NCBI GenBank assembly: GCA_022842325.1
Contig: JALHPU010000001.1
Location: 144,934 to 208,933, forward strand
Reading direction: 5' to 3'
From: Sulfuritalea sp.
Lineage (GTDB): Bacteria > Pseudomonadota > Gammaproteobacteria > Burkholderiales > Rhodocyclaceae
DNA: 64,000 nt
This document shows positions 30,812 through 54,434 of this stretch, one piece after another. The translations under genes and the position numbers were made by a program. Below the pieces are notes generated by a model. That model saw only the letters and a list, made by a program, of their open reading frames with translations. It did no database searches and was not told the DNA's origin. The stretch's first letter is position 1, and the number at the start of each line of letters is the position of its first letter.

Positions 30812-30836
30812 CGTATGGCGGAACAGAGGAATCTAA

Positions 30837-35519: not shown

Positions 35520-35528
35520 TGGGAGATG

Positions 35529-36088: not shown

Positions 36089-36241
36089 GTCAGATGGCTA
36101 ACGAAGCTGTAGAAAAAGTCTTTTCATAGTCGCATCGTGCCGCGAACCAAATGGAATATCAATACTCGAAGCATGAGTTATTGCGCAGATGTAATCATGG
36201 CCCGCTACAAACACATCAATAACGTAGAGCTGACGATGCCG

Positions 36242-39744: not shown

Positions 39745-40092
39745 TGAATTACCAAGGAAGACCAGTCTAGGTTACGGCAACACGGAATGAGAACGTAAGC
39801 AATTTTAGTGCAAGCCCTGCGGGTAGAACTCTCTGACCAGCCCCTGCGGCCGCGCCACAAACCGGCCGCGACGCCTTGGCCCTGGCCAACAGCACGCTGA
39901 CTTCGTGACCCGCGCCATAGCGGTCGCGCACCTTGGCCGGAATCGGGCCGATGCAAAACCCGGCGGATTCATATCGCCGGGAACGCCGATACGCATTGCA
40001 CCACCCTGCAAATGGAATATTTTTTCCAGCATGCCGCAGCCTTGCTCCCGGCATTCTTTTCGATGCCGGCAACTGGTAAGATGGCCTTGATG

Positions 40093-40491: not shown

Positions 40492-40533
40492 GCCTGCGTT
40501 GTACGCAAGCGGCCGACGATCCGTGATGAAGCC

Positions 40534-40971
40534 ATGAAACGGTTACGCTCCATCGGCGGTTTCGTGATGCTCCTGGCTGCGGCGGCGATCGCCTTTGGCC
40601 AGACCACGGAAGCAACCTCTGCCACGACGGGATTCGACTGCTGGATAGGCTCCAACGGCCCACCCCTGCATACGCGGTTCATCCGCTGCATGACGGACCG
40701 GGATTTGCCGCATGTCGAACTGAGCAACACCCAGACCGAAGAAGTGATGCACCTGCTGCATCAGGAATTTCACAGCAAGTCGGGGGCCGCTGCGGAAACC
40801 ATGTTCAAGGCAAACATCGAACTGATCCGGATGTCCCCCTCGGTGTGGAGCATCCGGATCTTTTCCTACCCGTCCGACTGGTCCTGGCAGGAAGGCACAC
40901 CGGAACGGCTGGTACGGGCGGTGCTTTGCCCCAGCGAGGGCAGCTGCACGGTGATGATCCGCAAGGACTAG
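40534..40971 (+). CDS. Secreted hypothetical protein (145 aa, 5 Cys)
   Basis: Cleavable signal peptide MKRLRSIGGFVMLLAAAAIAFG. Confidence 0.45.
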   Translation: MKRLRSIGGFVMLLAAAAIAFGQTTEATSATTGFDCWIGSNGPPLHTRFIRCMTDRDLPHVELSNTQTEEVMHLLHQEFHSKSGAAAETMFKANIELIRMSPSVWSIRIFSYPSDWSWQEGTPERLVRAVLCPSEGSCTVMIRKD

Positions 40972-41825
40972 TACAGGAGTTCGCTCCAGCGTCCGCTGGA
41001 GCGCAGCTTGGCGTGCAAGGAGGCCCAGTCCCGCGCCGAGCCGGCCAGCTCGACCATGGCCTTGTCGACCGCGGCGAGCATGTTTCCGGTGCCGGCGATG
41101 AAGACCCGGGTGTCGGGCCGCTGCAGCATCTCCCAGACCTCCGCCGCGTTCTGTTCCAGTGCCTCGTCCAATGTTGCCGGCGCATCGAAAGCCGGACGCG
41201 GGCTGACCGCCTGGAAGGCCTTGAAGGTGGGCTGGTCGAAGTAGTTGGCGAGGTCGTTGTTTTCGTCGTTCATGTAGAGCATTTCGAGCGGACTCCTGGC
41301 GCCGTAGAACAGCCGCACCTTGCCCTTCCAGCCGCCGATCTTTTCGTAGATCTGCCGGATCAGAGTGCGAAAGGGCGCGATGCCGGTGCCCATGCCGAGC
41401 ATCAGGATGTCGGCGTTCTTGTCCTCCGGGATCACGAACGGATAGCCCACCGGACCGGCGAACGCGAGTACGTCGTCGGGTCGCATGTCGCACAGGTAGT
41501 TCGAGGCGACACCCTTGTATTCCTCGCCGTTGAAATCATCGATGTAGGAGCAGCGCCGCACGCAGATGGCGAACTCGGTCGCATTGCCGCGCCGCTCGAG
41601 GTCCATGATCGAGTAGATGCGCGTGTGGTGGGCGTTGCCGAACTGGCCCGGCGCCATGACGCGAACGCAGTTGCCGACGGCGGCGTCGAAGGACAGGTCG
41701 TCGGTACGAAATACCAGATGTCGCACCTCCTCGCGCGAAGCGGGCGGTGTAATGCGGCGCGACTCGGTCAGGACCGCGGCATAGGTTTTGGCAGGGGGCG
41801 GTGAGGGTGGCTTCGAGATCTGCAT
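40968..41825 (-). CDS. fpr: Ferredoxin-NADP+ reductase (plant-type FNR)
   Basis: FAD-binding RIYSI and NAD(P)-binding GMGTGIAPF motifs. Confidence 0.8.
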   Translation of the reverse strand: MQISKPPSPPPAKTYAAVLTESRRITPPASREEVRHLVFRTDDLSFDAAVGNCVRVMAPGQFGNAHHTRIYSIMDLERRGNATEFAICVRRCSYIDDFNGEEYKGVASNYLCDMRPDDVLAFAGPVGYPFVIPEDKNADILMLGMGTGIAPFRTLIRQIYEKIGGWKGKVRLFYGARSPLEMLYMNDENNDLANYFDQPTFKAFQAVSPRPAFDAPATLDEALEQNAAEVWEMLQRPDTRVFIAGTGNMLAAVDKAMVELAGSARDWASLHAKLRSSGRWSELLY

Positions 41826-41849
41826 GGCATTGGCTCCGATAAAAGTTGA

Positions 41850-42062
41850 TCAGCGGCGAGGCGCGGCAGGCTGTGCGGCATCGGCGGCGCAGGACGCATC
41901 GCTGCAGCCGCTGCCGGCCGCGCAGCAGCCGCATTTGCTGTTGTCGCGAAAGGGACCGAGTTGCGGATTTCGTGCCGCAAATCGCTGATAGATGCGGTCG
42001 ACCAGAATCCCGCCGCAGAGGACGGCGAAGATGATGGCGATGGTGGTCAGATAGAGGCCCAT
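41850..42062 (-). CDS. Small membrane protein with Cys-rich tail (FeoB-associated Cys-rich membrane protein-like), 70 aa, distal gene of the rnf operon
   Basis: MGLYLTTIAIIFAVLCGGILV (TM) then ...NSKCGCCAAGSGCSDASC; start overlaps the rnfA stop. Confidence 0.45.
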   Translation of the reverse strand: MGLYLTTIAIIFAVLCGGILVDRIYQRFAARNPQLGPFRDNSKCGCCAAGSGCSDASCAADAAQPAAPRR

Positions 42063-42640
42063 CAGCCGCCCAGTCCGGCGAAGCCCATGAAGGACAGCGA
42101 CAGGATGCCCGCCAGCATCAGCGACAGGGCGGTGCCCTGCGCCAGATCGGGCACGTTGGACAATTGCAGGCGCTCGCGCACACTGGCCATCAGCACCAGC
42201 GCCAGGGTGAAGCCGGCACCACCGCCGATGCTGAAGGTGACCGACTGGATGAAGTCGTACTCGCGCGCGGTCTGGAACAGCGCGACGCCGAGCACGGCGC
42301 AATTGGTGGTGATCAACGGCAGGTAGATGCCCAGCGCGCGGAACAGTTTCGGGCTGTATTTCTTCAGCACCATCTCGACCAGTTGCACCGAGGAGGCGAT
42401 GATCACGATGTAGGAGATCAGGCGCAGGAACTCGAGGTGGAAGTAGCCCAGCAGCAGATTCAGGCCGTAGGCGCAAAGCGAGGCCACCAGCATCACAAAG
42501 GTGGTCGCCACACCCATCGGGAAGGCCGTATCGAGCCGCCCGGAGACGCCGAGGAAAGGGCACAGGCCGAGAAACATCGCCAGCACGAAATTGTTGGCGA
42601 GCAGCGCATTGATAAAAATCTGGAAGGCCGACTCATGCAT
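42062..42640 (-). CDS. rnfA: Rnf electron-transport complex subunit A
   Basis: RnfA/NqrE family six-TM protein. Confidence 0.9.
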   Translation of the reverse strand: MHESAFQIFINALLANNFVLAMFLGLCPFLGVSGRLDTAFPMGVATTFVMLVASLCAYGLNLLLGYFHLEFLRLISYIVIIASSVQLVEMVLKKYSPKLFRALGIYLPLITTNCAVLGVALFQTAREYDFIQSVTFSIGGGAGFTLALVLMASVRERLQLSNVPDLAQGTALSLMLAGILSLSFMGFAGLGG

Positions 42641-43283
42641 TTTGCGTCGCCTCCGTCAGTTTGGCTTGCTGCTTGCGCAACTTCCTGCGCTCGATCCAGG
42701 CGAACAGCAGCAGCCAGGCACCGAGCACGAAGAAGCCGCCCGGCGGCAGCACCATGATGACCCAGGGCTGGAAACCGGCACCGAACAGCCCGATGCCGAA
42801 CAAGGTACCGGCGCCGAGGATTTCGCGCACCACGCCCAGCGCCAGCAGGCCGATGACGAAGCCGATGCTCATGCCCAGCGCATTGATCATCGCCGGCAAC
42901 GGCGGATTCTTCGAGGCGTGGGCCTCGGCCCGGCCGAGGATGATGCAGTTCACCACGATCAGCTGGATGAAGGCGCCCAACGCATCGTAGAGCGTCAGGC
43001 TGATCGCCTGGATCGCGTAGTCGACCACGGTGACGAAGGTGGCAATGATCACGATGTAGACGGCGATGCGCACTTCCTTGGGCGTGAACTTGCGCATCAG
43101 CGACACCAGGCCGCAGGAGCAGACCAGCACGAACAGCGTCGCCAACCCCATCGACAGCGCATTCACGGCCGAGACCGTCACCGCCAGCGTCGGGCACATG
43201 CCGAGCACCATGACGAACACCGGGTTCTGGCGCCAGACGCCCTCCATGAATTCGTCCCAGGTCGCGACGGTGGACGGATTCAT
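42633..43283 (-). CDS. rnfE: Rnf complex subunit E
   Basis: RnfE/NqrD family; start at MNPSTVATW (ATG 43283) inside ORF 42633..43586. Confidence 0.9.
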   Translation of the reverse strand: MNPSTVATWDEFMEGVWRQNPVFVMVLGMCPTLAVTVSAVNALSMGLATLFVLVCSCGLVSLMRKFTPKEVRIAVYIVIIATFVTVVDYAIQAISLTLYDALGAFIQLIVVNCIILGRAEAHASKNPPLPAMINALGMSIGFVIGLLALGVVREILGAGTLFGIGLFGAGFQPWVIMVLPPGGFFVLGAWLLLFAWIERRKLRKQQAKLTEATQNA

Positions 43284-44020
43284 GATTTGCTCCCGAGCTT
43301 GTCGATGTTTGGAACCAGGCGCGGCAGCAAAGCCTGCGCCGAATCGTTGATGGCCTTGCCCACGGCGCGCGAAGTGATCGTCGCGCCGGCGATGGCGTCG
43401 ATCTGCCATGCGCTGGTCTTGGCGCCGTGCTTGACCGCCCTGACCTCGTTGGCCAGCGCCGACAGGTCGCCCTTGAGCTTGACGTCCAGCGCCGTGAAGT
43501 TGGCCAGGAAGTCCTTGTCGGTGATGATCTTGTCGCCGATGCCCGGCGTCTCGCGCATGGCCACCACGCCGATGCCGACCACGCACTGGCAGTCGGGCGA
43601 ATAGCCGAACATGATGCGCACCGTGTCGGCATAGCCTTTGGCGCCGCCCTCGGCGGCGATGCCGGCGAGCTTGCCATCCGCGTCGTAGGCGGCGAAGAAC
43701 TTGACCGCGCCGGGCGCGCTCGCCGTGTCGCCAGCGCCGACTCTTGGTTCGATGCCCCCACCGGGAAGTGCGACGTACTCGGCAATCGACTTCGCCGCCG
43801 GAATCACCTTGAACACCGCGCGCTCGGTAGCGATGCGCTTGTTGGCAGCGACCGCATCGTAGGTGCCCTGGTAGGCGCCGACGATGATCAGGCCGCAGAT
43901 CGCCGAGACCAGACCCAGGGTGCGGATCATGCCGACCGTCGGCGAGGCCGGCGGCGCAGCGCCAGGCGCGACCGCGATCGGGATCACCTTGTGTTCAGTG
44001 GGCTTGTCTGGCGTGTTCAT
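43280..44020 (-). CDS. rnfG: Rnf complex subunit G (FMN-binding)
   Basis: RnfG/NqrC FMN-binding domain (SGATITSRAV); start at MNTPDKP (ATG 44020). Confidence 0.85.
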   Translation of the reverse strand: MNTPDKPTEHKVIPIAVAPGAAPPASPTVGMIRTLGLVSAICGLIIVGAYQGTYDAVAANKRIATERAVFKVIPAAKSIAEYVALPGGGIEPRVGAGDTASAPGAVKFFAAYDADGKLAGIAAEGGAKGYADTVRIMFGYSPDCQCVVGIGVVAMRETPGIGDKIITDKDFLANFTALDVKLKGDLSALANEVRAVKHGAKTSAWQIDAIAGATITSRAVGKAINDSAQALLPRLVPNIDKLGSKS

Positions 44021-45165
44021 TTTTTCGGCTTCTTCGGCAGGAAGCGCTTCTTCGGCGTCACCGCGCCGGCTTCTTCGCGCGAGATGTAACCCGGGTTCAG
44101 CGGATAGGTGGCGCGCTTCCTGACGCGGTCGAGCACGCCGCGGCCGAAGGGCACCGGCTGGGTGATCTTCTCGATCAGCGGCGAGGCGGCATTGGCGATC
44201 AGGATCGCGTACATCACGCCTTCCGGCAGGCCGCTGTAGTAGCGGATCACCACCGTCAGGAGGCCGATCAGCGCGCCATACACCCACATGCCCTTGGGCG
44301 TCACCGGCGAGGTCGCCATGTCGGTCGCCATGTACACCGCACCGAGGATCAGGCCGCCGGAGAACAACATGAAGAAGGGATTCGGATAGCGCGTCGGATC
44401 GAACGCGAACAGCAGCCAGGCGGTCAGCGCCGCACTGCCGAGGATGGCCAGCGGAATGCGCCAGTCCATGAAGCGGCGCGCCGCAAGATAGGCGCCGCAG
44501 ACCAGGATCAGGACCGGCGCCGGACCCACCGCCATATGGCCGGAGAGCGATGTCAGCAGTTCGTCGGCATTGGCGATGACGCCATCGAACTTCCATTTCG
44601 CCAGCGGCGTCGCACCGGCCAGGGCATCGAGATTCTTCGCCTTGAGCCAGGTCGCGGTATCGGCCGGAATCATCAGCGGCCAGGCCAGCGTGGACGGAAT
44701 GAACTCGGTGAAGCGGCCGGCGAGGAAGGACGGCGTATAGGTGGCAATTGCCGTGGGAAACGCGGCCTGGACGAAGGCGCGGCCGACCAGCGCCGGGTTG
44801 AAAACATTGAAACCGATGCCGCCGAACAACGCCTTGCCCAGCGCGATGGCGACCATGCCGGCGACCGTGCCCATCCACAGCGGGAAGCCGGGCGGCAGCG
44901 TCAGCGCCAGCAGCAGGCCGGTGATCACGGCGGAGTAATCCGACAGGCGTCCGGCCTGCGTCCCGGTGCCGACGAAGAGGCGCTCGGTCAGCAGGCAGGC
45001 GGCAGTGACGACAAGGATCGATGCCAGCGCCGAGATTCCGTACTGGAAGACATAGAAGGCGCAGATCGGCAGCAGCGAGTACACCACGTGGCGCATGATG
45101 GTCTCGACGGTCTTCGCCGCCTGTACATGCGGCGCGGAACGGATTTCAATGAGCGGCTGGTTCAT
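44017..45165 (-). CDS. rnfD: Rnf complex subunit D
   Basis: RnfD/NqrB family; start at MNQPLIEIR (ATG 45165). Confidence 0.9.
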   Translation of the reverse strand: MNQPLIEIRSAPHVQAAKTVETIMRHVVYSLLPICAFYVFQYGISALASILVVTAACLLTERLFVGTGTQAGRLSDYSAVITGLLLALTLPPGFPLWMGTVAGMVAIALGKALFGGIGFNVFNPALVGRAFVQAAFPTAIATYTPSFLAGRFTEFIPSTLAWPLMIPADTATWLKAKNLDALAGATPLAKWKFDGVIANADELLTSLSGHMAVGPAPVLILVCGAYLAARRFMDWRIPLAILGSAALTAWLLFAFDPTRYPNPFFMLFSGGLILGAVYMATDMATSPVTPKGMWVYGALIGLLTVVIRYYSGLPEGVMYAILIANAASPLIEKITQPVPFGRGVLDRVRKRATYPLNPGYISREEAGAVTPKKRFLPKKPKK

Positions 45166-46538
45166 GCGGCCTTCTCGCGCAGGATCTGCTTGGCGACGCG
45201 GAACTGCTGCACCAGCGGAATGTTGGACGGGCAGACGTAAGTGCAACAGCCGCACTCGAAGCAGTCGCCGAGGAAAAACTGCTCGCCCATCAGGTCGTAT
45301 TCGCGCTTGGCGGCGAGCATGCCCAGCGTCGACGGATTGAGGCCCATCGGGCAGGATTCGACGCATTCGCCGCATTTGATGCAGGGATAGGTCTGGCGCC
45401 CCTCGCGCGCCGCCATGTCCTCGTGGCGGAATACCAGCACGCCGGAAACGCCCTTGGTGATCGGCACCTCGAGCGAGCCGACGGCCTGGCCCATCATCGG
45501 CCCGCCGAGGATCACCTGGCGCGCGTCGAGCGCATCGACCGCCGGCACACCGGCGTAGTCGAGCACGAACTTGAGCGGCGTGCCGAGGATCACGCGATAG
45601 TCGCCGGGGCGCGCCACGCCGGAACCGGTGACGGTCACCACGCGCTCGGTCAGGCCCTGCCCGGCCGGCAGCAACTTGCCCAGCGCGGCCAGCGTGCCGA
45701 CGTTGCTGACCACCATGCCCAGGGCGATGGGCAGGCCGCCGGCCGGCATCTCGGCGCCGAATAGCGCCATGATCAGCATCCGTTCGGCGCCCTGCGGATA
45801 CTTGGTCGGCACCGCCTCGACGTGGATTTCGCCTTCCGGAAACGCACCGCCGGCGCCGGCCCAGGCGATGGCCTGGCGCAGCGTAGCCACGGCGTCGGGC
45901 TTGTTGTCCTCGATGCCGATGATGGCGCGCACGGCACCGGTGGCGCGCATGGCATAGCGTGTGCCGGCAATCAGGTCGTCGGCATGCTCGACCATGACGC
46001 GATGATCACAGGTCAGGTAGGGCTCGCACTCGCAACCATTCACCACCAGCGTGTGCACCTTCGCCTGCTTCGGCACCGAGAGCTTGGCATGGGTCGGGAA
46101 GGCGGCGCCGCCCAAGCCGACCATGCCGGTGTCCCAGATCGCCTGCAGGATGTCCTGGCCGCTGGCCTGCGACAGGTCGCGCGACTGGCCCCACAGATCC
46201 TCCTGCGTCGCGCCGGGATGGGCGCGGATCACGATCGACTCGACCCAGGTGCCGCGCATGCCGGGGCGCAGGCCGATGAATTCGACCACGCCCGACAGCG
46301 GCGCGTGGTGCGGCACCGACAGCCACTCGTCGCTGCGGGCGATCGGCTGGCCGCGCACCACGTCCTGACCGACCCGGACGATGGGCCGCGGCGCCTTGCC
46401 GATGTGCTGCGACAGCGGCACCGTCACCTTGGGCGGAAACGGCAGGCGGCGGATCTTGCTGTCCGCCGTCAGCTTGCAGGACGGCGGATGCACGCCGCGC
46501 TGAAAGGCGCCGCCGCGAAAGTAGGAAATCAGCTTCAT
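45162..46538 (-). CDS. rnfC: Rnf complex subunit C (NADH-binding, two 4Fe-4S)
   Basis: RnfC family with CIKCGECVESCP / CFECGCCTYVCP; start at MKLISYFRGG (ATG 46538). Confidence 0.9.
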   Translation of the reverse strand: MKLISYFRGGAFQRGVHPPSCKLTADSKIRRLPFPPKVTVPLSQHIGKAPRPIVRVGQDVVRGQPIARSDEWLSVPHHAPLSGVVEFIGLRPGMRGTWVESIVIRAHPGATQEDLWGQSRDLSQASGQDILQAIWDTGMVGLGGAAFPTHAKLSVPKQAKVHTLVVNGCECEPYLTCDHRVMVEHADDLIAGTRYAMRATGAVRAIIGIEDNKPDAVATLRQAIAWAGAGGAFPEGEIHVEAVPTKYPQGAERMLIMALFGAEMPAGGLPIALGMVVSNVGTLAALGKLLPAGQGLTERVVTVTGSGVARPGDYRVILGTPLKFVLDYAGVPAVDALDARQVILGGPMMGQAVGSLEVPITKGVSGVLVFRHEDMAAREGRQTYPCIKCGECVESCPMGLNPSTLGMLAAKREYDLMGEQFFLGDCFECGCCTYVCPSNIPLVQQFRVAKQILREKAA

Positions 46539-46549
46539 GCCGGATAGGG

Positions 46550-49500
46550 TCAGTTGAACTTCGCCGCCCGCGTCATGAGCTTCTCGATGCCCGGCTCGCT
46601 CATGTTCCAGGGCGTGCCGGGATGGATGCAGCCGGCCGTGCACTTCTCCGCGGCCTTGACGATGTCGGCGAACTTGCCGCCCTTCGGATTGATGACGATG
46701 GCAAGCTTCTGGTCGTTGTAGGCGAAGGTCTTCGGCGCCAGCGTGGTGCACTCGTCGCAGGCCGTGCATTCGGGGGTTTCGATCCAGACCGGGTCGTAAT
46801 CGCCGCCACCCGCTGTCGCCGCCGCCGTGTCGCCAGCGCCGACTGTTGCCGTCGGAGCGGCGTCCGCCAGGCCGCCGAGACCGAGGCTGGCAGAAATCTT
46901 CGCCAGCAGTTCGGCGCGCACGCGCTCCGTCACTTCGACGGCGTCGGTTGCCTGAACGCCGAGACCGGCCAGATCGCGAAGCTGCCGCCAGAAATTCAGC
47001 CGCTCCTCGGCCGAGCGCACCAGTTCTTCGGTCACCAGCAGGCGCATCAGGCGGTTCTTCTTGTCCACCGCCCAGATGAAGGGGAAGCGGCCTTCGCGCG
47101 CATCCTTGTCGAGTTCGATGAACTCGGCGATCGGCAGCATGTTCTCGTTCCAGGTATCGGCCGGCGCCTTCTTGAAGTGCTTGAGGAAGCGCGCCTCGGT
47201 CGCGGCGAAGTCGGCGAAGGTCATCGGCAGCGTCATGCTCTGCTCCGCCCCTGCCTCGTCGAGATACTTGAGCGTATAGGTCGGCCAGTCGGTGTCGAGC
47301 GAGGGGTTGCCTTCGAGACTGACGCATTCGCTGAAGGTGGTGCCGGCATCGGGATCGAAGCGGAACAGCGGATAGGCACGGCCTTCCACCGCCAGCTTGC
47401 TCTGGTCCACGCTCTTGTCGTCGCCGACGCCGTGTTCCGGCGGGCACACGGCGTAGATGTTGAACACCGCCGGGCGGCGGCTGTTGAGGCCGTCGATGTA
47501 GCTTTCGATCAGGTGATTGACGTGGGCGATGGTGCCCTGCATGACGTAGGAGGTGCGATGCGCCATTCCGATCAGCGACATTTCCTTGCGCGTTTCCTGC
47601 TTGCCGCGCGACGCGCTGCCGAAAGGCGCCATGTCGGACACCTGGCTGATGAAGCCCGAGGTACAGGCCTGGCCGCCGGTGTTCGAATACACCTGGGTGT
47701 CGACCACCAGCACCTTGATCGGCATGCCGGACATCAGTGCGCGCGACAGGTTCTGGAAGCCGATGTCATACATCGCGCCGTCGCCGCCGATAGCTACCAC
47801 CGGCGGACAAAGCTCCCACTCGTCGGCCGTAAACTTGCTCCAGGTGAAGCGGCGGAAGAAATCGTCGTCGCGATCGGGCAGGTAATCGCCCGCCAGCTCC
47901 TGCTCGGCGATGCGCACCGCCTTGAAGCCGTCGGCCATCTTCGCCATGTGGCCCTCGAAGATGCCCATCGCCACCGAGGGCGAATCCTGGAACAGGTGCG
48001 AGGTCCAGGGGAAGGGATAGGGGTGGAAGGGATAGGTCGAGCCCCACACCGAGGTGCAGCCCGTGGAATTGACGATGCCCATTTCGGCGCGGCCGCGCTT
48101 GGTCGGGCCTTCGACATAGCGCCACTTCAGGTCCTTGAGCTTTTCCAGCAACTGGGCGGTGTTCTTGACCCAGGCCGGATCGAGCAATTGCGATGGCTTG
48201 TCGGCATTCAGCTTGTCGGCCAGGCTGGACAGCGTCAGGTCGTGCAATCCGGTGGAATTCACGGCGCGCACCACGGCGCCGGTGTCGCTGAGATCCACGG
48301 CGGAGGCCAGCTTGATGCGCATGTGCTGTTCGAGGCGCAGGATCAGGTCGTCGAGCTTGTCGACGAAGGCCGCCACGCGCGGCTGCATCAGCGCAGTCAC
48401 GGTCGAGGTGAACAAGTGGATCGCGGTCTTCTCGCCGCAGCCGAGGCAGGCGCCGTCGCCGCAGTTCATCGAACCGTAGTTGCGCTTGTCCAGCAGCAGG
48501 GTTTCCAGCGCGCCGATCTTCTCGTCGAGGCTGTCGATGCGGCTGTATTCCTTGGGCGTGGTCGGCAGTTCCAGCCAGGTGTTCCAGTCGCGGCGCAGGC
48601 GCTCGACCGAATCCTCGGTCTGGGTCACCATTTTCAGCGCATTGTCTTCGCAGACCGTGACGCACAGCGCGCAGCCCTTGCAGGTGTAAGGATTGACGGT
48701 GATCGAGAACAGGCCGCCGCTGCCTTTGGATTTCTTCTCCTTCTGCGACCAGTAGGGCTTGGTTGCGGCGAACTGGAAACCGCCGAGATGGATCTGCAAC
48801 TGCGTGAATTCGGCGGCGAGGCCGGCGCGCTCGGCTTCCGGCGTGTCGGCCAGCACGGCGTCCATGGCGCGGTCGATCAGCGGGCGGACGAAGCCACCTT
48901 CGTTGTCGACCAGTGCGCGCAGCTTCTTTTCGATCGAACGCGCGGCGCGGCGCAGGTAGCGCGTCGGCGTGCCGCTGGTCTCGATGCGGTTGATCGCCGT
49001 GGCGAGTACGTCGCCGATCGAGCTGACCAGGCCGGGAATCGCCGAGTCCGGGCATTCCACATAGCAGTTGCCGCAGGCCGTGCAATTCTCCGCGATCCAC
49101 TCCGGATGCTCGAAGCGGATGCCGGTCATGTCGCGGAACACACCGGTGGCGGCCGGCACCAGCGAGGCGCCGATGAAGGGATCGACCAGGTTGTCGTTGC
49201 CCTTGCCGGTCAGGTAGAAATGCCCGGTCTGTTCCCAGAAGCGATGGATGTCGCCCACCTTGGTCAGTCGAATCTCGTCACCGACCGGCAGTTGCTTCAG
49301 CATCACCGGCAGGCCGACATCCTTCTTGACGAAGCCCTTGCGCGTCACGCCTACTTGCTTGTCGGTGATCTCCGTCAGTTCGGTGAAGCCGCGCCGCACC
49401 ACGCGCAAATTGTCGGCCACCACGCGGGCACCCTTGCCGCCGAACTTGGATTGCAGCTGGGCTTCGATCGCGGTAAACAGCGCATCCTCGGTCAGCCCGG

Positions 49501-51517
49501 CATTGGCCATGGTCGGGCTGGCGGCGAAGAAGGCGCCCTGGAAGGCGATGCCCTGCATGCGCAGTTGCAGCTCGGCCGCACCGGCCTCCTCGCGGGCGAT
49601 CTGGAAGGCGTCGAGGTGGAACACGCGAATCTCGTTGTCGACGATGAACTTCTGCGCCCAGAGCGGAAAGCTGGCCCAGGTCTCATCGCCGAGATTCGAC
49701 TGGATGATGAAGAAGCCGCCCTTTTTCAGGCCCGACAGAGGATTGCTGTGGCCGAACACCGCGGGGTCGGGCGAGAGCACGACATCGACATAGACGTATT
49801 CGCAGTTGATGCGGATCGGTTCCGGCGCGGCCGAAAGGTAATAGGTGGTCGGCTGGCCCTTCTTTTCCGAGCCGTACTTAGGATTGGCCTTGATGTCCCA
49901 GCCGAGCAGTTCGAACAGGGTCATCGCCAGGTTCTTGCCGGTGGTGATGGCGCCCCAGCCGCCGACCGAGTGCATGCGCACGGTGATCGCGCCCTTGGGC
50001 AGCAGATTGGGATTCTCCGAGCCGCGCACCCCCAGTTCGCGGATGTGCGGATACTTGTCGGCGATGTCCTGCTGGTGCACCTCGTCCTTCGGGTTCAGCG
50101 GATCGCGGGCGAAGTCGATCGACAGGTAATAGAACTTGCGTTGCGTGCCCTCGGGCAACATGTTCTCGACGGCGCCGATCAGCGCCTCGGGCTGCAGGTC
50201 GCGCGAGCCCAGGCCGTAGCAGCCGGAATACAGGCGCGGCATGTCGCCGGCGCCGTAACTCGCGTAATCGGCATAGGACGGCGCTCCGCCGGCGGCGCTC
50301 ATGCCGTTCTCGAGGCACTTCATCAGCGTCGCACGCACCTCGCGCATCAGCGGCAGATCCTCGGCCAGCGGCTGGTCGGTGCGCTCCAGCACCGCCACGC
50401 CCTTCCTGCCGCGCAGCACGTGGCCCAGCAGGTCGCCGGGGAAGGGACGGAACATGGTCAGGTTCACCACGCCAACCTTGAGCTTGCGCGTCTCGCGCAG
50501 GTAATCGGCCACGGCTTCGGCCTGCACGATCATGCTGCCCATGCCGAGGATCAGGTAGTCCGCATCTTCGGCCTTGAAGGTGGCGACGCGCTGGTAGCGG
50601 CGGCCGGTGAGGCCGGCATATTCGTCGAGGCAGGCCTCGGTGATGGCTTCGATGTGATCGAAGAAGTAGGGGCGCTGGCCGGCGGTGGCCTGCATGTAGG
50701 CATCCTGGTTCTGCACCGAGCCCGACAGGAGGGGCGTATCCACATCCCAGATCGCCGGCACCCGGCGCCGCTTCGGCCCGTAGAGCATCTGCTGCGCCGG
50801 TGTCGGCGTATCGATCAGGTCGTCGGGCTTGCCGAGGAATTCGGCCACCAGTTCGCGTTCCGGCAGCAGCACCGACTCGATCAGGTGGGTGGTGAGAAAG
50901 CCGTCCTGGCCGATGATGGCCGGCGTCAGCGACAGCTCGGCGACCTTGCGCGCGATCAGGTTGAGGTCGGCAGCCTCGGTGGCATTCTTGGCCATGACCT
51001 GGATGAAGCCGGTGTCGTCGATGCAATGGTAGTCGTCGTGGCCGGCATGGACGTTGAGCGAAACCTTGGTGATGGCGCGACAACCCATGTTCAGCACATA
51101 GGGCAGGCGCTTGCCGACCGCGGCGTAGAGCGACTCGTGCATGAAGGCGACGCCCTGGCCGGAAGAGAAGTTGACCGCGCGCAGGCCGGTCATGGCCATG
51201 CCGGCGGTGACGCCCGCGGCCGCGTGTTCTGATTCCGGCTCGATGAAGATCAGCGGCTTGTCGGAAATATTGAGATGGCCCTTGGCGACCTCTTCCGCCC
51301 AATACTCGCCCATCTGCGTCGAGGGCGTGATCGGGTAGGCACCGGCGGCGTCGGACGACTCGCGTTCGACATGGATGACCGCGGTATTGCCATCGACGGC
51401 ATCGCGCACTCCCGGATATTTCACCGCCGTGGCCGCCTGGCCGGCACTGCCGCTTTCCAGAAGGGAGAACGAGAAAATTTTCTTGATCAGTGACTTGGAC
51501 ATGACGACTTCCTTCAA
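46550..51517 (-). CDS. Giant (1655 aa) pyruvate:ferredoxin/flavodoxin oxidoreductase-family protein (NifJ/YdbK-like) with inserted segments and an extra C-terminal Cys-cluster domain
   Basis: PFOR domains I-III, two ferredoxin motifs (CTACGNCYVECP, CKGCALCVTVCEDNA), ThDP motif GGDGAMYDIGF, plus C-terminal ...CTACDECTT...CTAGCIHP. Confidence 0.85.
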   Translation of the reverse strand: MKEVVMSKSLIKKIFSFSLLESGSAGQAATAVKYPGVRDAVDGNTAVIHVERESSDAAGAYPITPSTQMGEYWAEEVAKGHLNISDKPLIFIEPESEHAAAGVTAGMAMTGLRAVNFSSGQGVAFMHESLYAAVGKRLPYVLNMGCRAITKVSLNVHAGHDDYHCIDDTGFIQVMAKNATEAADLNLIARKVAELSLTPAIIGQDGFLTTHLIESVLLPERELVAEFLGKPDDLIDTPTPAQQMLYGPKRRRVPAIWDVDTPLLSGSVQNQDAYMQATAGQRPYFFDHIEAITEACLDEYAGLTGRRYQRVATFKAEDADYLILGMGSMIVQAEAVADYLRETRKLKVGVVNLTMFRPFPGDLLGHVLRGRKGVAVLERTDQPLAEDLPLMREVRATLMKCLENGMSAAGGAPSYADYASYGAGDMPRLYSGCYGLGSRDLQPEALIGAVENMLPEGTQRKFYYLSIDFARDPLNPKDEVHQQDIADKYPHIRELGVRGSENPNLLPKGAITVRMHSVGGWGAITTGKNLAMTLFELLGWDIKANPKYGSEKKGQPTTYYLSAAPEPIRINCEYVYVDVVLSPDPAVFGHSNPLSGLKKGGFFIIQSNLGDETWASFPLWAQKFIVDNEIRVFHLDAFQIAREEAGAAELQLRMQGIAFQGAFFAASPTMANAGLTEDALFTAIEAQLQSKFGGKGARVVADNLRVVRRGFTELTEITDKQVGVTRKGFVKKDVGLPVMLKQLPVGDEIRLTKVGDIHRFWEQTGHFYLTGKGNDNLVDPFIGASLVPAATGVFRDMTGIRFEHPEWIAENCTACGNCYVECPDSAIPGLVSSIGDVLATAINRIETSGTPTRYLRRAARSIEKKLRALVDNEGGFVRPLIDRAMDAVLADTPEAERAGLAAEFTQLQIHLGGFQFAATKPYWSQKEKKSKGSGGLFSITVNPYTCKGCALCVTVCEDNALKMVTQTEDSVERLRRDWNTWLELPTTPKEYSRIDSLDEKIGALETLLLDKRNYGSMNCGDGACLGCGEKTAIHLFTSTVTALMQPRVAAFVDKLDDLILRLEQHMRIKLASAVDLSDTGAVVRAVNSTGLHDLTLSSLADKLNADKPSQLLDPAWVKNTAQLLEKLKDLKWRYVEGPTKRGRAEMGIVNSTGCTSVWGSTYPFHPYPFPWTSHLFQDSPSVAMGIFEGHMAKMADGFKAVRIAEQELAGDYLPDRDDDFFRRFTWSKFTADEWELCPPVVAIGGDGAMYDIGFQNLSRALMSGMPIKVLVVDTQVYSNTGGQACTSGFISQVSDMAPFGSASRGKQETRKEMSLIGMAHRTSYVMQGTIAHVNHLIESYIDGLNSRRPAVFNIYAVCPPEHGVGDDKSVDQSKLAVEGRAYPLFRFDPDAGTTFSECVSLEGNPSLDTDWPTYTLKYLDEAGAEQSMTLPMTFADFAATEARFLKHFKKAPADTWNENMLPIAEFIELDKDAREGRFPFIWAVDKKNRLMRLLVTEELVRSAEERLNFWRQLRDLAGLGVQATDAVEVTERVRAELLAKISASLGLGGLADAAPTATVGAGDTAAATAGGGDYDPVWIETPECTACDECTTLAPKTFAYNDQKLAIVINPKGGKFADIVKAAEKCTAGCIHPGTPWNMSEPGIEKLMTRAAKFN

Positions 51518-51524
51518 TGCGAAT

Positions 51525-52403
51525 TCAATAATGCAGGGGCAACGGATCGTTGCGCAGGATTTTCTTGGCGGCGGCGCCCTTGACCGGACGGTCCGGGGTT
51601 TCGAACCAGACGATGGCGCCGGTCGGGCAGCGCTCGATCGGGGCGCGACCCGCGCGGTCGTTCCAGTCGTAATTGACCACTGCCAGGTTGTTGGCCAGTT
51701 GCATCAGCTTGAACGGCGAATCGGCGACGCACTTGCCGCAGGCGGTGCAGGCCACCTCGCAGGAGGCCTCTGCGGTATCGCCGTCCGCCTGGTTCTTGCA
51801 AGCCACCCAGAGCCGGTGACTGACCGGCTCGAGGCTGAACAGGCCCTTGGGGCAGACTTCGACGCAGTCGTTGCAGGCAGTGCATTTGTCGCTATCGACT
51901 ACAGGCAGGCCATGGGCATCCATGGCGATCGCATCGAAGGTGCAGACATTGGCGCAGTCTGCGAGGCCCAGGCAGCCCCAGGCGCATTCCTTGCCGCCAC
52001 CGGAAACCACCGCTGCGGCACGGCAGGTTTTCAGCCCCTCGTAGCGGGCGCGCAGAAACGCGACGTGATGGCCGCCGCCGCAGGCCAGGCGCGCCACGCT
52101 CTTTTCCACGCTGCCGGCGGCAACGCCGAGCAGGTCGGCGATGCCCTGGCGCTGCTGCGGTGTGCTGACGGTGCACTTGGCCGGTACCACTTCACCGCCG
52201 ACCACCTTTTCCGCGAAGTCGCGGCAACCGGCCTGACCGCAGGCGCCGCAGTTGGATTTCGGCAGCAGTTCTTCGACCTCGCCGATGCGCGGGTCTTCAT
52301 AGACGAACAGTTTCTTGTTGGCAAAGGCCAGCAGCAGCGCCAGGAGCACGCCCAGCCCCGCCATGAAGCCTCCTGCCACCGCCAGATTCGTCACCGACTC
52401 CAA
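51525..52403 (-). CDS. rnfB: Rnf complex subunit B (polyferredoxin)
   Basis: N-terminal membrane anchor, CGACGQAGC cluster and several CxxCxxCxxxCP motifs. Confidence 0.85.
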   Translation of the reverse strand: MESVTNLAVAGGFMAGLGVLLALLLAFANKKLFVYEDPRIGEVEELLPKSNCGACGQAGCRDFAEKVVGGEVVPAKCTVSTPQQRQGIADLLGVAAGSVEKSVARLACGGGHHVAFLRARYEGLKTCRAAAVVSGGGKECAWGCLGLADCANVCTFDAIAMDAHGLPVVDSDKCTACNDCVEVCPKGLFSLEPVSHRLWVACKNQADGDTAEASCEVACTACGKCVADSPFKLMQLANNLAVVNYDWNDRAGRAPIERCPTGAIVWFETPDRPVKGAAAKKILRNDPLPLHY

Positions 52404-52770
52404 GCCTGCCCACTCCCTCGCCAGCGCGGTTCGCTGATGCTTTAAATCTGAACTAAAACCGCTTTAATGTCATGGTTTTCATCCCGCGCTCCGGCGCCGA
52501 CAGAGAGATTCGGAATGACCTCTGCGGAAGCAATCGAAAGGCAGGAGAAATCGTAGAACCGCCGGCTTCCAGCCTTGAGGGCGGAAGCCGTCGGTCCCAT
52601 CACATCGCAGCCGGGAGTTGCTCCCGATCTACAGGGGAAGCCGGCGCGTTGGCACCGGCTCGGGCATACGCCTGGGGCGGGGTTTCGCCTCTGGCGTTTG
52701 TGACCAGTCAACTATAAGACTTGCGGTCCGCTGGACCTAGCGGATAATTTTATTTCGGCATTTGCCGAGT

Positions 52771-53625
52771 TCATTCCGCGGTCGCCATGGAACAGCGCGC
52801 ATGCACCCACTGCAACAGTTCCGCGGCTACCGCCTCGCGATCCAGATCATTGAGGGTTTCGTGGCGGCTGCCCGGCCACAGCCGCAGCGTACGATCCGCA
52901 CCGCCCCAGAGGTCATGGATCTCCCGGCTGCCTGCCGGATCGGTGAGGCGGTCGGCATCGCCGTGAAACAGATACACCGGCAGCGTCAAGCTGGCCGCCG
53001 CAGCGCGATTGGTCGCCATGGCTTGCAGCAATTCAGCCCCGGTGCGTGCCGGTGGCGCCGCCAGGCTCACCAGCGGATCGCCGACATAAGCCGCCACTGC
53101 CACAGGGTCGCGGCTGATCACTGCCGGATCGATGCGCGTACCACGCAGATGCGGCAACCAGCGCGAGAGAAACGGCGCCAGCCACACCAGCAGGCGCGGC
53201 ACGTCGCCGCCGATCTTGAGTGCCGCCGAGGACAGGATCAGTCCTGCCACCGGCTGGCGCCGTTGTGCTACCCAGCGCAGAACAATCGCGCCGCCCATGC
53301 TGTGGCCGAGGAGGAATACCGGACGGCCGGCGGCAAGTTCGTCCGCCTTCGTCCAGAGCGTGTCGACGTCCAGCAGGTAATCATCGAAGCGCTCGACGTA
53401 CGAGCGTTCGCCCGGTGAGCGGCCGTGGCCGCGCAAGTCGACCGATACCACACCCAGCCCCTGCCGGTTGGCCAGTTCGGCGAGAAAGGCGTAGCGCCCC
53501 GAGTGCTCCGCGATACCGTGCACCACAGCGATCACCGCGCAGAACTCAGGCGGCAGCCAGGCATGACCGGCAAGCGTCACGCCGTCGGCAGTGCGCAGTT
53601 CGAAGGAATGGTTTTCGGGATTCAT
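52771..53625 (-). CDS. Alpha/beta-hydrolase (lysophospholipase/monoacylglycerol-lipase-like)
   Basis: HGIAEHSGRY, GHSMGG nucleophile elbow; start at MNPENHSF inside the longer ORF. Confidence 0.7.
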   Translation of the reverse strand: MNPENHSFELRTADGVTLAGHAWLPPEFCAVIAVVHGIAEHSGRYAFLAELANRQGLGVVSVDLRGHGRSPGERSYVERFDDYLLDVDTLWTKADELAAGRPVFLLGHSMGGAIVLRWVAQRRQPVAGLILSSAALKIGGDVPRLLVWLAPFLSRWLPHLRGTRIDPAVISRDPVAVAAYVGDPLVSLAAPPARTGAELLQAMATNRAAAASLTLPVYLFHGDADRLTDPAGSREIHDLWGGADRTLRLWPGSRHETLNDLDREAVAAELLQWVHARCSMATAE

Positions 53626-53663
53626 ATCCGTCTCGGCTCGAGTAGCGGGGAATTGCCGTGCGG

Positions 53664-54434
53664 CTAGCGACGCTCCCTGACCACGAAAGGCTCGACCAGC
53701 GCCTCCTGCACCGACTCGTCCCTGTTGAGCGCCTTGTCGAAACTGGCGTTCCATACATCGGCGTTGGCCAGGTCGGCGCTTTTCATGTCCGCCTTGAAGA
53801 ACACCGCCTGGCGCAATGTGGCGCCCTTCAACCGCGTCTCCGTCAGATTCGCATCGGTGAAGTCAGCCTGCTCCATCGCCGCTCCGGTCAGGTCGGCGCC
53901 CGACAGATCGGTGCCGACCAAGCGGGCGCCGGAAAACACGCCGCGAAATGCGTAGCAGTTGCGGATCGAGCCACCCGAGAGGTCGATCCCCTCCATCAGC
54001 ACGTCCTTCAGATAGGCACCGGAAAAATCGGCCCGCAGCGCCCGGGTGTTGATCAGGTTGGCGCCGAACAGGTTGGCGCCCGCCAGCTTCGCGTCGCTCA
54101 GATCGCCGTCATCGAAGGTCGCATGGAACAGGTCGGCATTGCGCAGGTCTGCCCCCTTCAAATCCGTCCCGGTGAACTTGGCCCATTTGGCATTGCTGCC
54201 GCGCAGATCCGCGCCAGCCAGGTTGGCCTGGCTGAAATCGGTGCTTTCCAGCTTGGCGCCGGCCAGCCGCGCGCCGTGCAAGTCCCTGCCAGCCAGTTTC
54301 TTGCGCGAGAAATCGCAGAGCGAGAGATCGGTCGCCGCCTGCGGCGCGGCGCAGTTGCCCGCCGGCAAGTCGGCGGCCCCCGCCTCGATGGCGAACAGCA
54401 GCGGCAGCAGGATAATGATGACGTGTGATTTCAT
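53664..54434 (-). CDS. Secreted pentapeptide-repeat protein
   Basis: Signal peptide then reiterated A(D/N)LxG pentapeptides. Confidence 0.75.
   Translation of the reverse strand: MKSHVIIILLPLLFAIEAGAADLPAGNCAAPQAATDLSLCDFSRKKLAGRDLHGARLAGAKLESTDFSQANLAGADLRGSNAKWAKFTGTDLKGADLRNADLFHATFDDGDLSDAKLAGANLFGANLINTRALRADFSGAYLKDVLMEGIDLSGGSIRNCYAFRGVFSGARLVGTDLSGADLTGAAMEQADFTDANLTETRLKGATLRQAVFFKADMKSADLANADVWNASFDKALNRDESVQEALVEPFVVRERR

What the first reader, a model, noticed from the sequence alone, without database searches (positions are those of the whole stretch)
41850..52403. Non-canonical rnf operon: rnfB, then a giant PFOR gene, then rnfCDGEA and a Cys-rich mini-protein, followed by FNR
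All six Rnf subunits are present on the minus strand. rnfB is separated from rnfC by a 5-kb PFOR-family gene inserted in-line (8-nt and 12-nt gaps), and the order is B-PFOR-C-D-G-E-A rather than ABCDGE. A 70-aa TM plus Cys-cluster protein overlaps the rnfA stop, and a plant-type ferredoxin-NADP reductase follows. That places a ferredoxin-producing or -consuming 2-oxoacid oxidoreductase, the Na+/H+-coupled ferredoxin:NAD oxidoreductase and an FNR in one transcriptional neighbourhood. The layout is compatible with Rnf-driven pyruvate synthesis (reductive carboxylation) in an autotrophic sulfur oxidiser.
Basis: partly seen in the sequence, partly recalled or inferred. Interest (0 to 1): 0.6.

Follow-up and report, generated by a model that had tools for sequence, protein, structure and literature searches.

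The report
Rnf operon with built-in ferredoxin-fused PFOR
This is a real nine-gene operon that joins a pyruvate-splitting enzyme carrying its own tethered ferredoxin to a membrane ion pump. It is the standard, widespread layout in sulfur- and iron-oxidising bacteria and was already noted in print, so it is not an oddity of this genome.

Summary
On the minus strand lie rnfB, a 1650-aa PFOR-family gene, rnfCDGEA, a 70-aa Cys-rich membrane protein and a plastid-type FNR. They are packed with gaps of -8 to +24 nt and have no internal promoter or terminator signal above chance.

The layout is not unusual. rnfB sits directly upstream of the long PFOR in 72 of 74 related genome loci, and rnfC directly downstream in 59 of 61. 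These loci span Rhodocyclales, Gallionellaceae, Rhodoferax, Hydrogenophilus, Sedimenticola, Thiodiazotropha, Thiothrix, Chromatiaceae, Ectothiorhodospiraceae and a Terriglobia genome. At least 593 species genomes hold this long PFOR. PFOR between rnfB and rnfC was reported for the Solemya velum symbiont in 2014, and rnfBCDGEA is a known order.

Three details were not found in the searched literature:
- The PFOR ends in a mono-cluster ferredoxin domain on a disordered linker.
- The mini-protein belongs to a large family with no Pfam or NCBIfam model.
- A 155-nt structured RNA with strong covariation and no Rfam match precedes rnfB in Rhodocyclales-type loci.

Most likely mechanism: PFOR passes electrons through its tethered ferredoxin to RnfB, coupling pyruvate/acetyl-CoA+CO2 to NAD(H) and the ion gradient. 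The direction cannot be decided from sequence.

The parts
52707..52720 (-). Invariant box GTCTTATAGT(T/G)GAC just 5' of the leader RNA. It is promoter-like (TATAGT after an AT-rich stretch).
   Evidence: Invariant in 13 Sulfuritalea/Sulfurisoma-group loci. The consensus sigma-70 scan did not call it, so the promoter role is inferred.
52553..52707 (-). Conserved structured leader RNA, 155 nt. A closing stem encloses three hairpins (four-way junction) and is followed by a fifth hairpin with loop CCCNCAAGG.
   Evidence: RNAalifold consensus. In 13 sequences 92.9% of cells are paired against 83.9% in shuffles, and 23 pairs change on both sides against 14.5 (0/500 shuffles). With 26 sequences the values are 89.3% against 74.0%, and 35 against 26.5. 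Covariance models find it upstream of rnfB in 27 Rhodocyclales-type loci, 13-14 of which were not used to build the model. There is no Rfam match. MFE z-score is -4.7.
51525..52403 (-). rnfB, 292 aa: N-terminal membrane helix, FeS domain and polyferredoxin part.
   Evidence: PF04060 49.9 bits. TIGR01944 80.4 bits against a cut-off of 68.7. Best matches are the PRK07118-type RnfB models.
46550..51502 (-). Long PFOR-family 2-oxoacid:ferredoxin oxidoreductase, 1650 aa.
   Evidence: POR_N, PFOR_II, POR and TPP_enzyme_C domains. TIGR02176 scores 381.6 bits, below the cut-off of 911. Best solved relatives are Moorella and Desulfovibrio PFOR. Cys motifs lie at 807-817, 941-951 and 1019/1022/1149/1280, with a GDG TPP motif.
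48728..49018 (-). Helical insertion (aa 829-925) between the two cluster motifs of the PFOR ferredoxin domain.
   Evidence: Absent from solved PFORs (alignment gaps). Predicted as a confident helical bundle with pLDDT about 90.
48113..48436 (-). Second helical insertion (aa 1023-1130) at the start of the TPP domain, including a 45-residue helix.
   Evidence: Alignment gap to 6cin between query residues 985 and 1137. Helices in the model have pLDDT 60-94.
46802..46882 (-). Ala/Gly/Thr-rich linker (aa 1541-1567).
   Evidence: Sequence composition. pLDDT 24-39, with no secondary structure.
46553..46801 (-). C-terminal mono-cluster ferredoxin domain (aa 1568-1650). Cluster ligands are Cys1579, 1582, 1585 and 1621.
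   Evidence: Fer4_13 scores 28.8 bits against a cut-off of 24.5. The four Cys are invariant in 25 sequences down to about 30% identity. Model pLDDT is 88. The best fold match is D. africanus ferredoxin I (1fxr; TM 0.80-0.86, 29% identity), followed by Pyrococcus, D. gigas and Thermotoga ferredoxins.
45162..46538 (-). rnfC, 458 aa.
   Evidence: TIGR01945 scores 463.5 bits against a cut-off of 246. RnfC_N, Complex1_51K and SLBB domains are present.
44017..45165 (-). rnfD, 382 aa.
   Evidence: TIGR01946 scores 265 bits against a cut-off of 207. DALAGAT flavinylation-type motif at 180-186.
43280..44020 (-). rnfG, 246 aa.
   Evidence: PF04205 FMN_bind scores 59.8 bits. TIGR01947 scores 85 bits, below its cut-off of 102. 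DAIAGAT motif at 208-214.
42633..43283 (-). rnfE, 216 aa.
   Evidence: TIGR01948 scores 224.6 bits against a cut-off of 213.4.
42062..42640 (-). rnfA, 192 aa.
   Evidence: TIGR01943 scores 243.4 bits against a cut-off of 229.3.
41850..42062 (-). 70-aa protein: one membrane helix, the motif (R/K)(N/H)P(E/Q)LGPFR, then a Cys cluster GC..C...C...C.
   Evidence: Its start overlaps the rnfA stop. The motif is present after rnfA in 49 of 53 loci, and the other four have a divergent Cys-rich small ORF. The family has 846 clusters, no Pfam domain, and is named 'hypothetical' or 'chemotaxis protein'. No Pfam or NCBIfam family matches.
40968..41825 (-). Plastid-type ferredoxin-NADP+ reductase, 285 aa, ending in Tyr.
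   Evidence: FAD_binding_6 and NAD_binding_1 domains. Best solved matches are spinach and pea FNR over residues 21-285. Present within 900 nt of rnfA in 23 of 51 loci.

Best explanation
The cluster is one operon encoding a dedicated pyruvate-to-NAD(H) electron route.

Proposed mechanism:
1. The long PFOR interconverts pyruvate + CoA with acetyl-CoA + CO2.
2. Electrons run through its three canonical [4Fe-4S] clusters to a fourth cluster in a small ferredoxin domain. That domain hangs on a flexible linker at the C-terminus.
3. The tethered ferredoxin docks on RnfB, so no free ferredoxin is needed.
4. Rnf passes the electrons to NAD+ and moves H+ or Na+ across the membrane, or runs in reverse.
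5. The FNR gives a side branch between the same ferredoxin level and NADP(H).
6. The Cys-rich mini-protein is an accessory subunit or a metal/cluster assembly factor of this Rnf type.
7. In Rhodocyclales the operon is preceded by a structured leader RNA that probably controls it.

Shown: gene content, domain content, conservation of the order, the ferredoxin fold and its ligands, and the RNA structure.

Inferred: physical docking, direction, and the roles of the mini-protein and the RNA.

My preferred physiological reading is a reversible module. Its main job in Calvin-cycle lithoautotrophs would be energy-conserving oxidation of pyruvate to acetyl-CoA at low oxygen. The roughly 180 mV between pyruvate and NAD+, which pyruvate dehydrogenase discards, would be saved as ion gradient. 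The module would run backwards when acetate or stored polyhydroxyalkanoate must be turned into C3 units.
For: - Operon structure: overlapping or near-abutting genes, and no promoter or terminator signal above chance.
- Conservation of order: rnfB-PFOR-rnfCDGEA in 72/74 and 59/61 testable loci across Beta- and Gammaproteobacteria and a Terriglobia genome. The same order holds around PFORs only 39% and 47% identical to the window's.
- PFOR catalytic features are kept: TPP GDG motif, three cluster motifs, and the Thr and Arg aligned to the pyruvate-binding residues of Moorella PFOR.
- Tethered ferredoxin: four invariant Cys, a disordered linker, and a fold match to D. africanus ferredoxin I and other mono-cluster ferredoxins.
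- PFOR lies next to rnfB, the ferredoxin-side subunit, rather than at the operon end.
- The FNR is a full-length plastid-type enzyme.
- Published reading for the Solemya symbiont: pyruvate as electron donor for this Rnf (PMC4287430).
- Thermodynamics (textbook values, my knowledge): acetyl-CoA+CO2/pyruvate is about -500 mV and NAD+/NADH is -320 mV.
Against: - No experiment or transcript data for this operon type was found in the searched literature.
- Docking of the ferredoxin domain on RnfB was not modelled.
- The PFOR scores far below the equivalog cut-off for pyruvate:ferredoxin oxidoreductase (381 vs 911 bits), so its substrate is inferred from a few conserved residues.
- A Dechloromonas genome carries the long PFOR without adjacent rnf genes (L028), so the enzyme can work away from the operon.
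- FNR is absent from about half of the loci.
- An FNR/Crp-box search upstream of rnfB gave no enrichment, so there is no sequence sign of anaerobic induction.
Confidence: 0.55

Rival explanations
1. Rnf uses the ion gradient to push electrons from NADH up to the tethered ferredoxin. The PFOR then works as pyruvate synthase, carboxylating acetyl-CoA to assimilate acetate or stored polymer, or as part of CO2 fixation.
For: - The hardware is the same as in the best explanation.
- The carriers include purple sulfur bacteria (Thiocapsa, Ectothiorhodospira, Thiorhodospira). Ferredoxin-dependent pyruvate synthesis was shown in Chromatium extracts in the 1960s (my knowledge, not checked here).
- Distant relatives place a korAB-type 2-oxoacid:ferredoxin oxidoreductase next to the operon, the pairing used in reductive TCA chemistry.
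- The Kentron symbiont study argues for PFOR as pyruvate synthase during polymer mobilisation (PMC6593406).
Against: - Lithoautotrophs of these lineages are described as Calvin-cycle organisms (e.g. the Thiodiazotropha and Solemya symbionts in the table of PMC6593406; for Sulfuritalea and Gallionellaceae this is my knowledge). They make C3 units directly, so they do not need pyruvate synthase for autotrophy.
- No citrate-cleavage or other reductive-TCA genes lie in the window or the flanks examined.
- korAB and PFOR also serve oxidative routes (PMC5460018).
Confidence: 0.3
2. The operon mainly supplies low-potential electrons for nitrogenase or other ferredoxin-dependent enzymes, as Rnf does in Rhodobacter and NifJ does in Klebsiella.
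For: Many carriers are diazotrophs (Thiodiazotropha, Sedimenticola, Gallionellaceae). Papers on these groups assign Rnf to nitrogen fixation (PMC10734482; PMC10734462).
Against: - No nif gene was seen among the neighbours examined.
- Not all Gallionellaceae with Rnf have nifDHK (PMC10734462).
- A ferredoxin tethered to PFOR is poorly suited to serve a distant soluble enzyme.
- The Solemya symbiont has a second, rnfABCDGE-type operon.
Confidence: 0.07
3. The PFOR-like enzyme acts on a different 2-oxoacid (2-oxoglutarate, glyoxylate/oxalate or a branched-chain oxoacid), so the module is not about pyruvate.
For: It scores well below the PFOR equivalog cut-off. It has about 420 extra residues in four places compared with solved PFORs.
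Against: - The best full-length matches are pyruvate enzymes.
- The Thr (ITPS) and Arg (CRA) aligned to the pyruvate-binding residues, and the YSNTGGQ motif, are kept.
- Distant loci carry a separate korAB beside the operon.
Confidence: 0.08

Closest known systems
rnf2 (rnfBCDGEA) operon of the Solemya velum gill symbiont, with PFOR between rnfB2 and rnfC2 (Dmytrenko et al. 2014, PMC4287430)
   Same: The gene order is the same, with PFOR inserted between rnfB and rnfC. The proposed meaning, that pyruvate feeds this Rnf, is also the same.
   Different: That paper gives one sentence. It does not mention the ferredoxin fusion, the mini-protein, the FNR, the breadth of distribution or a leader RNA. 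I did not retrieve the Solemya symbiont locus itself.
Rnf complexes of the rnfBCDGEA order (Chlorobi/Bacteroidetes type) and rnfCDGEAB order (Clostridia, Acetobacterium, Methanosarcina)
   Same: They have the same six subunits, and CDGEA follows in the same order (PMC4014512). RnfB here matches the PRK07118-type and Methanosarcina-type models better than the RsxB model.
   Different: Those operons have no oxidoreductase gene inside them and use free ferredoxin.
Single-chain PFOR of Moorella thermoacetica (6cin) and Desulfovibrio africanus (1b0p)
   Same: They share the domain order, the TPP site and three [4Fe-4S] motifs. They are the best sequence and fold matches.
   Different: The window protein has 1650 residues against 1171-1232. 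It has two helical insertions, a longer region after domain II and a fused fourth-cluster domain. Identity is about 16-19% over the structural alignment.
Desulfovibrio africanus ferredoxin I and other mono-cluster ferredoxins
   Same: The fold and the CxxCxxC...C ligand pattern of the C-terminal domain are the same. Fd I is a partner of D. africanus PFOR (my knowledge).
   Different: Here the ferredoxin is covalently tethered to the enzyme.
Pyruvate:NADP+ oxidoreductase of Euglena and Cryptosporidium (PFOR fused to a flavoprotein reductase; my knowledge)
   Same: The principle is the same: a PFOR fused to its electron acceptor module.
   Different: The fused module is different, and that enzyme has no membrane complex and no ion translocation.
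NqrM and FeoB-associated Cys-rich membrane proteins
   Same: They are small proteins with one membrane helix followed by a Cys cluster, encoded next to an Nqr/Rnf-type or iron-related operon (my knowledge for NqrM).
   Different: No member of the mini-protein family matched NqrM (PF04400). Only one of 25 weakly matched FeoB_associated (E = 0.12).

Membership tests
Rnf complex (RnfABCDGE-type ferredoxin:NAD+ oxidoreductase) | All six subunit families are present and pass the curated subfamily cut-offs. | tested here: met
   A, B, C, D and E pass their TIGR0194x cut-offs. G scores 85 bits against 102 but passes Pfam FMN_bind.
Rnf complex (RnfABCDGE-type ferredoxin:NAD+ oxidoreductase) | Covalent-FMN attachment motif (D-x-x-x-G-A-T) in RnfG and RnfD. 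| tested here: met
   DAIAGAT at RnfG 208-214 and DALAGAT at RnfD 180-186. The motif definition is from my knowledge.
Rnf complex (RnfABCDGE-type ferredoxin:NAD+ oxidoreductase) | Ferredoxin:NAD+ oxidoreductase activity coupled to ion transport. | not testable with these tools
   Requires biochemistry.
Pyruvate:ferredoxin oxidoreductase, single-chain type (TIGR02176) | Domains I, II, III, V and VI in order, a TPP GDG motif and three [4Fe-4S] Cys motifs. | tested here: met
   Pfam domains. Alignment to 6cin across all domains. Cys positions.
Pyruvate:ferredoxin oxidoreductase, single-chain type (TIGR02176) | Score at or above the equivalog cut-off. | tested here: not met
   381.6 bits against a cut-off of 911.35. 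It is therefore filed as a PFOR-superfamily member, a distinct long subfamily, and not as an equivalog.
Pyruvate:ferredoxin oxidoreductase, single-chain type (TIGR02176) | Pyruvate-binding Thr, Arg and Asn. | tested here: inconclusive
   Thr in ITPS and Arg in CRA align to the Moorella residues. Asn in YSNTGGQ is seen in the sequence, but that part of the alignment was cut off in the output.
Mono-cluster [4Fe-4S]/[3Fe-4S] ferredoxin | CxxCxxC...C ligand pattern, conserved across relatives. | tested here: met
   Cys1579, 1582, 1585 and 1621 are invariant in 25 sequences. Fer4_13 is above its cut-off.
Mono-cluster [4Fe-4S]/[3Fe-4S] ferredoxin | Ferredoxin fold. | tested here: met
   The model has pLDDT 88. 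The top PDB matches are all mono-cluster ferredoxins, with TM to target 0.71-0.80.
Plant/plastid-type ferredoxin-NADP+ reductase | FAD- and NAD(P)-binding domains, full-length similarity to plastid FNR and a C-terminal Tyr. | tested here: met
   The sequence ends ...SELLY. The cyanobacterial equivalog models are not reached (128 vs 600 bits).
NqrM (PF04400) / FeoB-associated Cys-rich protein (PF12669) | Match to the family profile. | tested here: not met
   None of 25 members matched NqrM. One of 25 matched FeoB_associated at E = 0.12. There were no NCBIfam matches.
Any Rfam RNA family (riboswitches, leaders, sRNAs) | Covariance-model score at the gathering threshold. | tested here: not met
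   No match at E <= 0.1 in 40000-54000. The best hits on the 401-nt stretch are far below the gathering scores.

The most novel reading that the evidence does not exclude
The long PFOR is a peripheral, physically bound module of this Rnf type. Its helical insertions form the docking surface and its tethered ferredoxin acts as a swinging arm, giving a membrane-bound, ion-translocating pyruvate:NAD+ oxidoreductase (or, in reverse, a gradient-driven NADH-dependent pyruvate synthase). The unnamed mini-protein would be a seventh subunit or cluster-insertion factor. In Rhodocyclales the whole unit would be governed by a new metabolite- or redox-responsive leader RNA.
Probability: 0.25. Interest if true: 0.75.

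Novelty: new member of a known kind. Interest (0 to 1): 0.42.

Why it matters
- Carbon/energy junction: if PFOR and Rnf work as one unit, hundreds of species of sulfur- and iron-oxidising bacteria, including animal symbionts, have a way to save or spend ion-gradient energy at the pyruvate/acetyl-CoA junction. Current metabolic models treat that junction as pyruvate dehydrogenase or as free-ferredoxin chemistry.
- Open question in the field: papers on Gallionellaceae and on symbionts say that the role of Rnf in these organisms is unknown or assign it loosely to nitrogen fixation. The tethered ferredoxin offers a concrete answer.
- Experiments enabled: it makes a clear experiment possible, namely pyruvate-dependent NAD+ reduction by membranes without added ferredoxin.
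- Leader RNA: it is a separate lead. It is a well-supported structured RNA with no family assignment in front of a central redox operon.

Tried and rejected
- FNR/Crp-box search (TTGAT-N4-ATCAA, up to 2 mismatches) in 350 nt upstream of rnfB: 26 of 70 loci against 24 of 69 in control coding sequence, so no enrichment.
- Sigma-70 promoter and intrinsic terminator scan of 40000-54000: nothing above the shuffled expectation.
- Exact look-up of the window's PFOR in the contig index: not on record.
- Pfam and NCBIfam scans of 25 mini-protein family members at E up to 10: no family.
- Hemerythrin and the unknown 145-aa gene downstream, and the hydrolase upstream: syntenic only in close Sulfuritalea relatives, so they are not part of the module.
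- korAB next to the operon: present in two distant loci but not in the window or the 80 genome loci.
- Second-round covariance model: the leader RNA was not found in Gallionellaceae, Rhodoferax, Hydrogenophilus or Gammaproteobacteria loci.
- Seven full-text literature searches were run. Six aimed at the operon; only the Solemya symbiont paper describes the PFOR insertion. The seventh found no report of a structured RNA upstream of rnf/PFOR genes.
- A metagenome pattern scan for the RNA was considered and dropped, because no pattern was both general and specific enough.
Full report
**What is in the sequence.**
- Pfam and NCBIfam identify RnfB, C, D, G, E and A.
- The 1650-aa protein has all PFOR domains.
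- The 285-aa protein has the FAD- and NAD(P)-binding domains of ferredoxin-NADP+ reductase.
- The 70-aa protein has no family.

I first placed the rnfB start at GTG 52394. For the PFOR the ATG at 51502 follows AAGGAAG and is the better start.

Gaps and overlaps run from -8 to +24 nt. A consensus scan finds no promoter and no terminator above the shuffled expectation inside the cluster.

The flanking genes are unrelated. Upstream is an alpha/beta hydrolase. Downstream are a convergent hemerythrin gene and an unknown gene, and these are syntenic only in close relatives.

**How common it is.** The PFOR has relatives at 82-96% identity in Sulfuritalea, Sulfurisoma, Azonexus and other Rhodocyclales.

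I mapped the window's nine proteins onto the best 80 loci:
- rnfB lies within 400 nt upstream of the PFOR in 72 of 74 testable loci.
- rnfC lies within 1 kb downstream in 59 of 61.
- The mini-protein motif follows rnfA in 49 of 53, and the other four have a divergent Cys-rich small ORF.
- The FNR follows in 23 of 51.

The loci come from Rhodocyclales, Gallionellaceae, Rhodoferax, Hydrogenophilus, Sedimenticola, Thiodiazotropha, Thiothrix, Chromatiaceae, Ectothiorhodospiraceae and one Terriglobia genome.

The exceptions are few:
- a Dechloromonas genome with a stand-alone long PFOR (L028);
- a locus with no adjacent rnfB or rnfC, in which the reading frame matching the PFOR is about 1520 aa (L040);
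- one locus with a histidine kinase and a phosphoglycerate mutase inserted before rnfC (L059).

PFORs only 39% and 47% identical to the window's over the C-terminal 850 residues sit in the same rnfB-PFOR-rnfCDGEA order. They also have a korAB-type oxidoreductase alongside.

**What is already in print.** The genome paper on the Solemya velum symbiont describes two rnf operons, rnfABCDGE and rnfBCDGEA. It states that PFOR genes lie between rnfB2 and rnfC2, so pyruvate may be an electron donor for that Rnf (PMC4287430). The rnfBCDGEA order is described as typical of Chlorobi/Bacteroidetes (PMC4014512).

The other papers I read on Gallionellaceae, Ferrigenium, Riftia, Kentron, lucinid symbionts and Accumulibacter mention Rnf and PFOR separately, and several state that their direction or the role of Rnf is unknown. 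None describes the insertion.

**Anatomy of the PFOR.** It is a divergent member of the PFOR superfamily. It scores 381 bits on the equivalog model against a cut-off of 911. Its best solved relatives are the Moorella and Desulfovibrio enzymes.
- The TPP GDG motif and the three canonical cluster motifs are present.
- The Thr and Arg aligned to the pyruvate-binding residues are present.
- About 420 extra residues sit in four places.

A structure model of residues 761-1650 (mean pLDDT 77.6) shows:
- a confident helical bundle inserted between the two cluster motifs of the ferredoxin domain (aa 829-924);
- a second helical insertion (aa 1023-1130);
- an Ala/Gly/Thr-rich stretch with pLDDT below 40 (aa 1541-1567);
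- a compact final domain.

Modelled alone (pLDDT 88), that final domain matches mono-cluster ferredoxins. D. africanus ferredoxin I is first (TM 0.80, 29% identity), followed by the Pyrococcus, D. gigas and Thermotoga proteins. The same match appears in the search with the large model (rank 31). Its four Cys are invariant in 25 sequences down to about 30% identity.

The wider long-PFOR group has two subtypes, one with this domain and one with a different, helical tail. Both examined members of the ferredoxin-bearing subtype that are distant from the window are rnf-linked.

**The mini-protein and the FNR.** The mini-protein family shares one membrane helix, the motif (R/K)(N/H)P(E/Q)LGPFR and a Cys cluster.
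- A profile search finds 846 clusters. None has a Pfam domain, and they are named 'hypothetical' or, oddly, 'chemotaxis protein'.
- No member matches NqrM, and only one weakly matches the FeoB-associated family.
- Its translational coupling to rnfA and its near-universal presence argue that it belongs to this Rnf type. Its role is inferred.

The FNR matches plastid FNRs over its whole length and ends with the typical Tyr.

**How it most likely works.** The position of the PFOR next to rnfB, the fused ferredoxin on a flexible linker, and the conservation of the unit across phyla point to direct electron transfer from PFOR to RnfB. Free ferredoxin would not be needed.

By textbook potentials the pyruvate couple lies about 180 mV below NAD+. 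That is enough for Rnf to move ions when pyruvate is oxidised, and small enough for the ion gradient to drive the reverse reaction. Sequence cannot choose between the two.

I favour oxidation as the everyday role in Calvin-cycle lithoautotrophs. They must convert C3 units to acetyl-CoA and gain from saving that energy. The reverse reaction would serve acetate or polymer assimilation. It is helped by the purple sulfur bacteria among the carriers and by korAB next to distant versions.

Supply of nitrogenase and a different substrate are less likely, for the reasons given under the rival explanations.

**An unexpected extra: a leader RNA.** While looking for regulator sites I aligned the 375-nt region upstream of rnfB with close relatives. 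It holds an invariant box, GTCTTATAGT(T/G)GAC, followed by hairpins with compensating changes.

RNAalifold gives a closing stem around three hairpins plus a fifth hairpin.
- On 13 sequences, 92.9% of cells pair (shuffles 83.9%; slid controls 36-44%). Twenty-three pairs change on both sides, against 14.5 in shuffles (0 of 500).
- A covariance model found the element in 13 further loci that were not used to build it. It is always on the operon strand, upstream of rnfB or, in L040, directly upstream of the PFOR.
- On the 26-sequence alignment the support holds, with 89.3% paired against 74.0% and 35 pairs against 26.5. The caveat is that this alignment is fitted to the model.
- A second-round model added one more Rhodocyclaceae locus and found nothing in the other lineages.
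- Rfam has no match.
- The window's own leader folds into the same shape, with z = -4.7.

I take this as a real structured 5' leader specific to Rhodocyclales-type operons. What it senses, and whether it acts on transcription or translation, is unknown. A weakly supported pairing between UUCCA and the start-codon region is only a hint.

**Verdict.** The finding is real but ordinary in its main claim. This is the standard, widespread form of a known rnf operon type, and it was already noted in 2014. I did not find three details in the literature: the tethered ferredoxin, the unnamed mini-protein family and the leader RNA. They turn a vague association into testable mechanisms. I score interest at 0.42 and class the finding as a new member of a known kind.

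Noticed in passing
window 52553-52720 (minus strand): A 155-nt structured RNA with strong covariation, preceded by an invariant promoter-like box, lies upstream of rnfB. It has no Rfam family and occurs in 27 Rhodocyclales-type loci.
   Followed up: yes
window 13664-21956 (plus strand): Reverse-type dsr sulfur-oxidation genes: two NIR_SIR proteins (dsrAB-like), small genes, a CCG/Fer4 protein (dsrK-like) and a Pyr_redox_2/Fer4 protein (dsrL-like). They support the sulfur-oxidiser label.
   Followed up: partly
window about 29400-37100: A low-GC stretch (51-55% against about 65% elsewhere). It carries a MORN-repeat protein, an SPFH/Band 7 protein and seven ORFs with no Pfam match. It may be an acquired island. 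There is no tRNA in the window.
   Followed up: partly
L081 12823-14577 (and L082): After korAB, a 619-aa protein is 27-33% identical to the last ~480 residues of the long PFOR, including the ferredoxin domain. It lacks the GDG TPP motif. It looks like a stand-alone adaptor-plus-ferredoxin module beside a second oxidoreductase.
   Followed up: partly
proteins P0130, P0134, P0148 and many others: A second subtype of long PFOR (1400-1650 aa) lacks the C-terminal ferredoxin domain. It ends instead in a helical tail with a recurring LTxxLLxLxGY-like motif. Its gene context was not examined.
   Followed up: no
L028 7244-12235; L059 12896-18295: Exceptions to the synteny. A Dechloromonas aromatica genome carries the long PFOR among unrelated genes. 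One gammaproteobacterial locus has a CHASE histidine kinase and a phosphoglycerate mutase inserted between PFOR and rnfC.
   Followed up: partly
window 882-2693 and 6209-11155: A YcaO-family gene. Also a cluster with a PaaA/PaaC-type oxygenase subunit, a reductase with FAD, NAD and 2Fe-2S domains, and a TauD-family dioxygenase.
   Followed up: no
mini-protein family: NCBI annotation names many members of this 60-80-aa Cys-rich family 'chemotaxis protein'. Nothing in the sequence or context supports that name.
   Followed up: no
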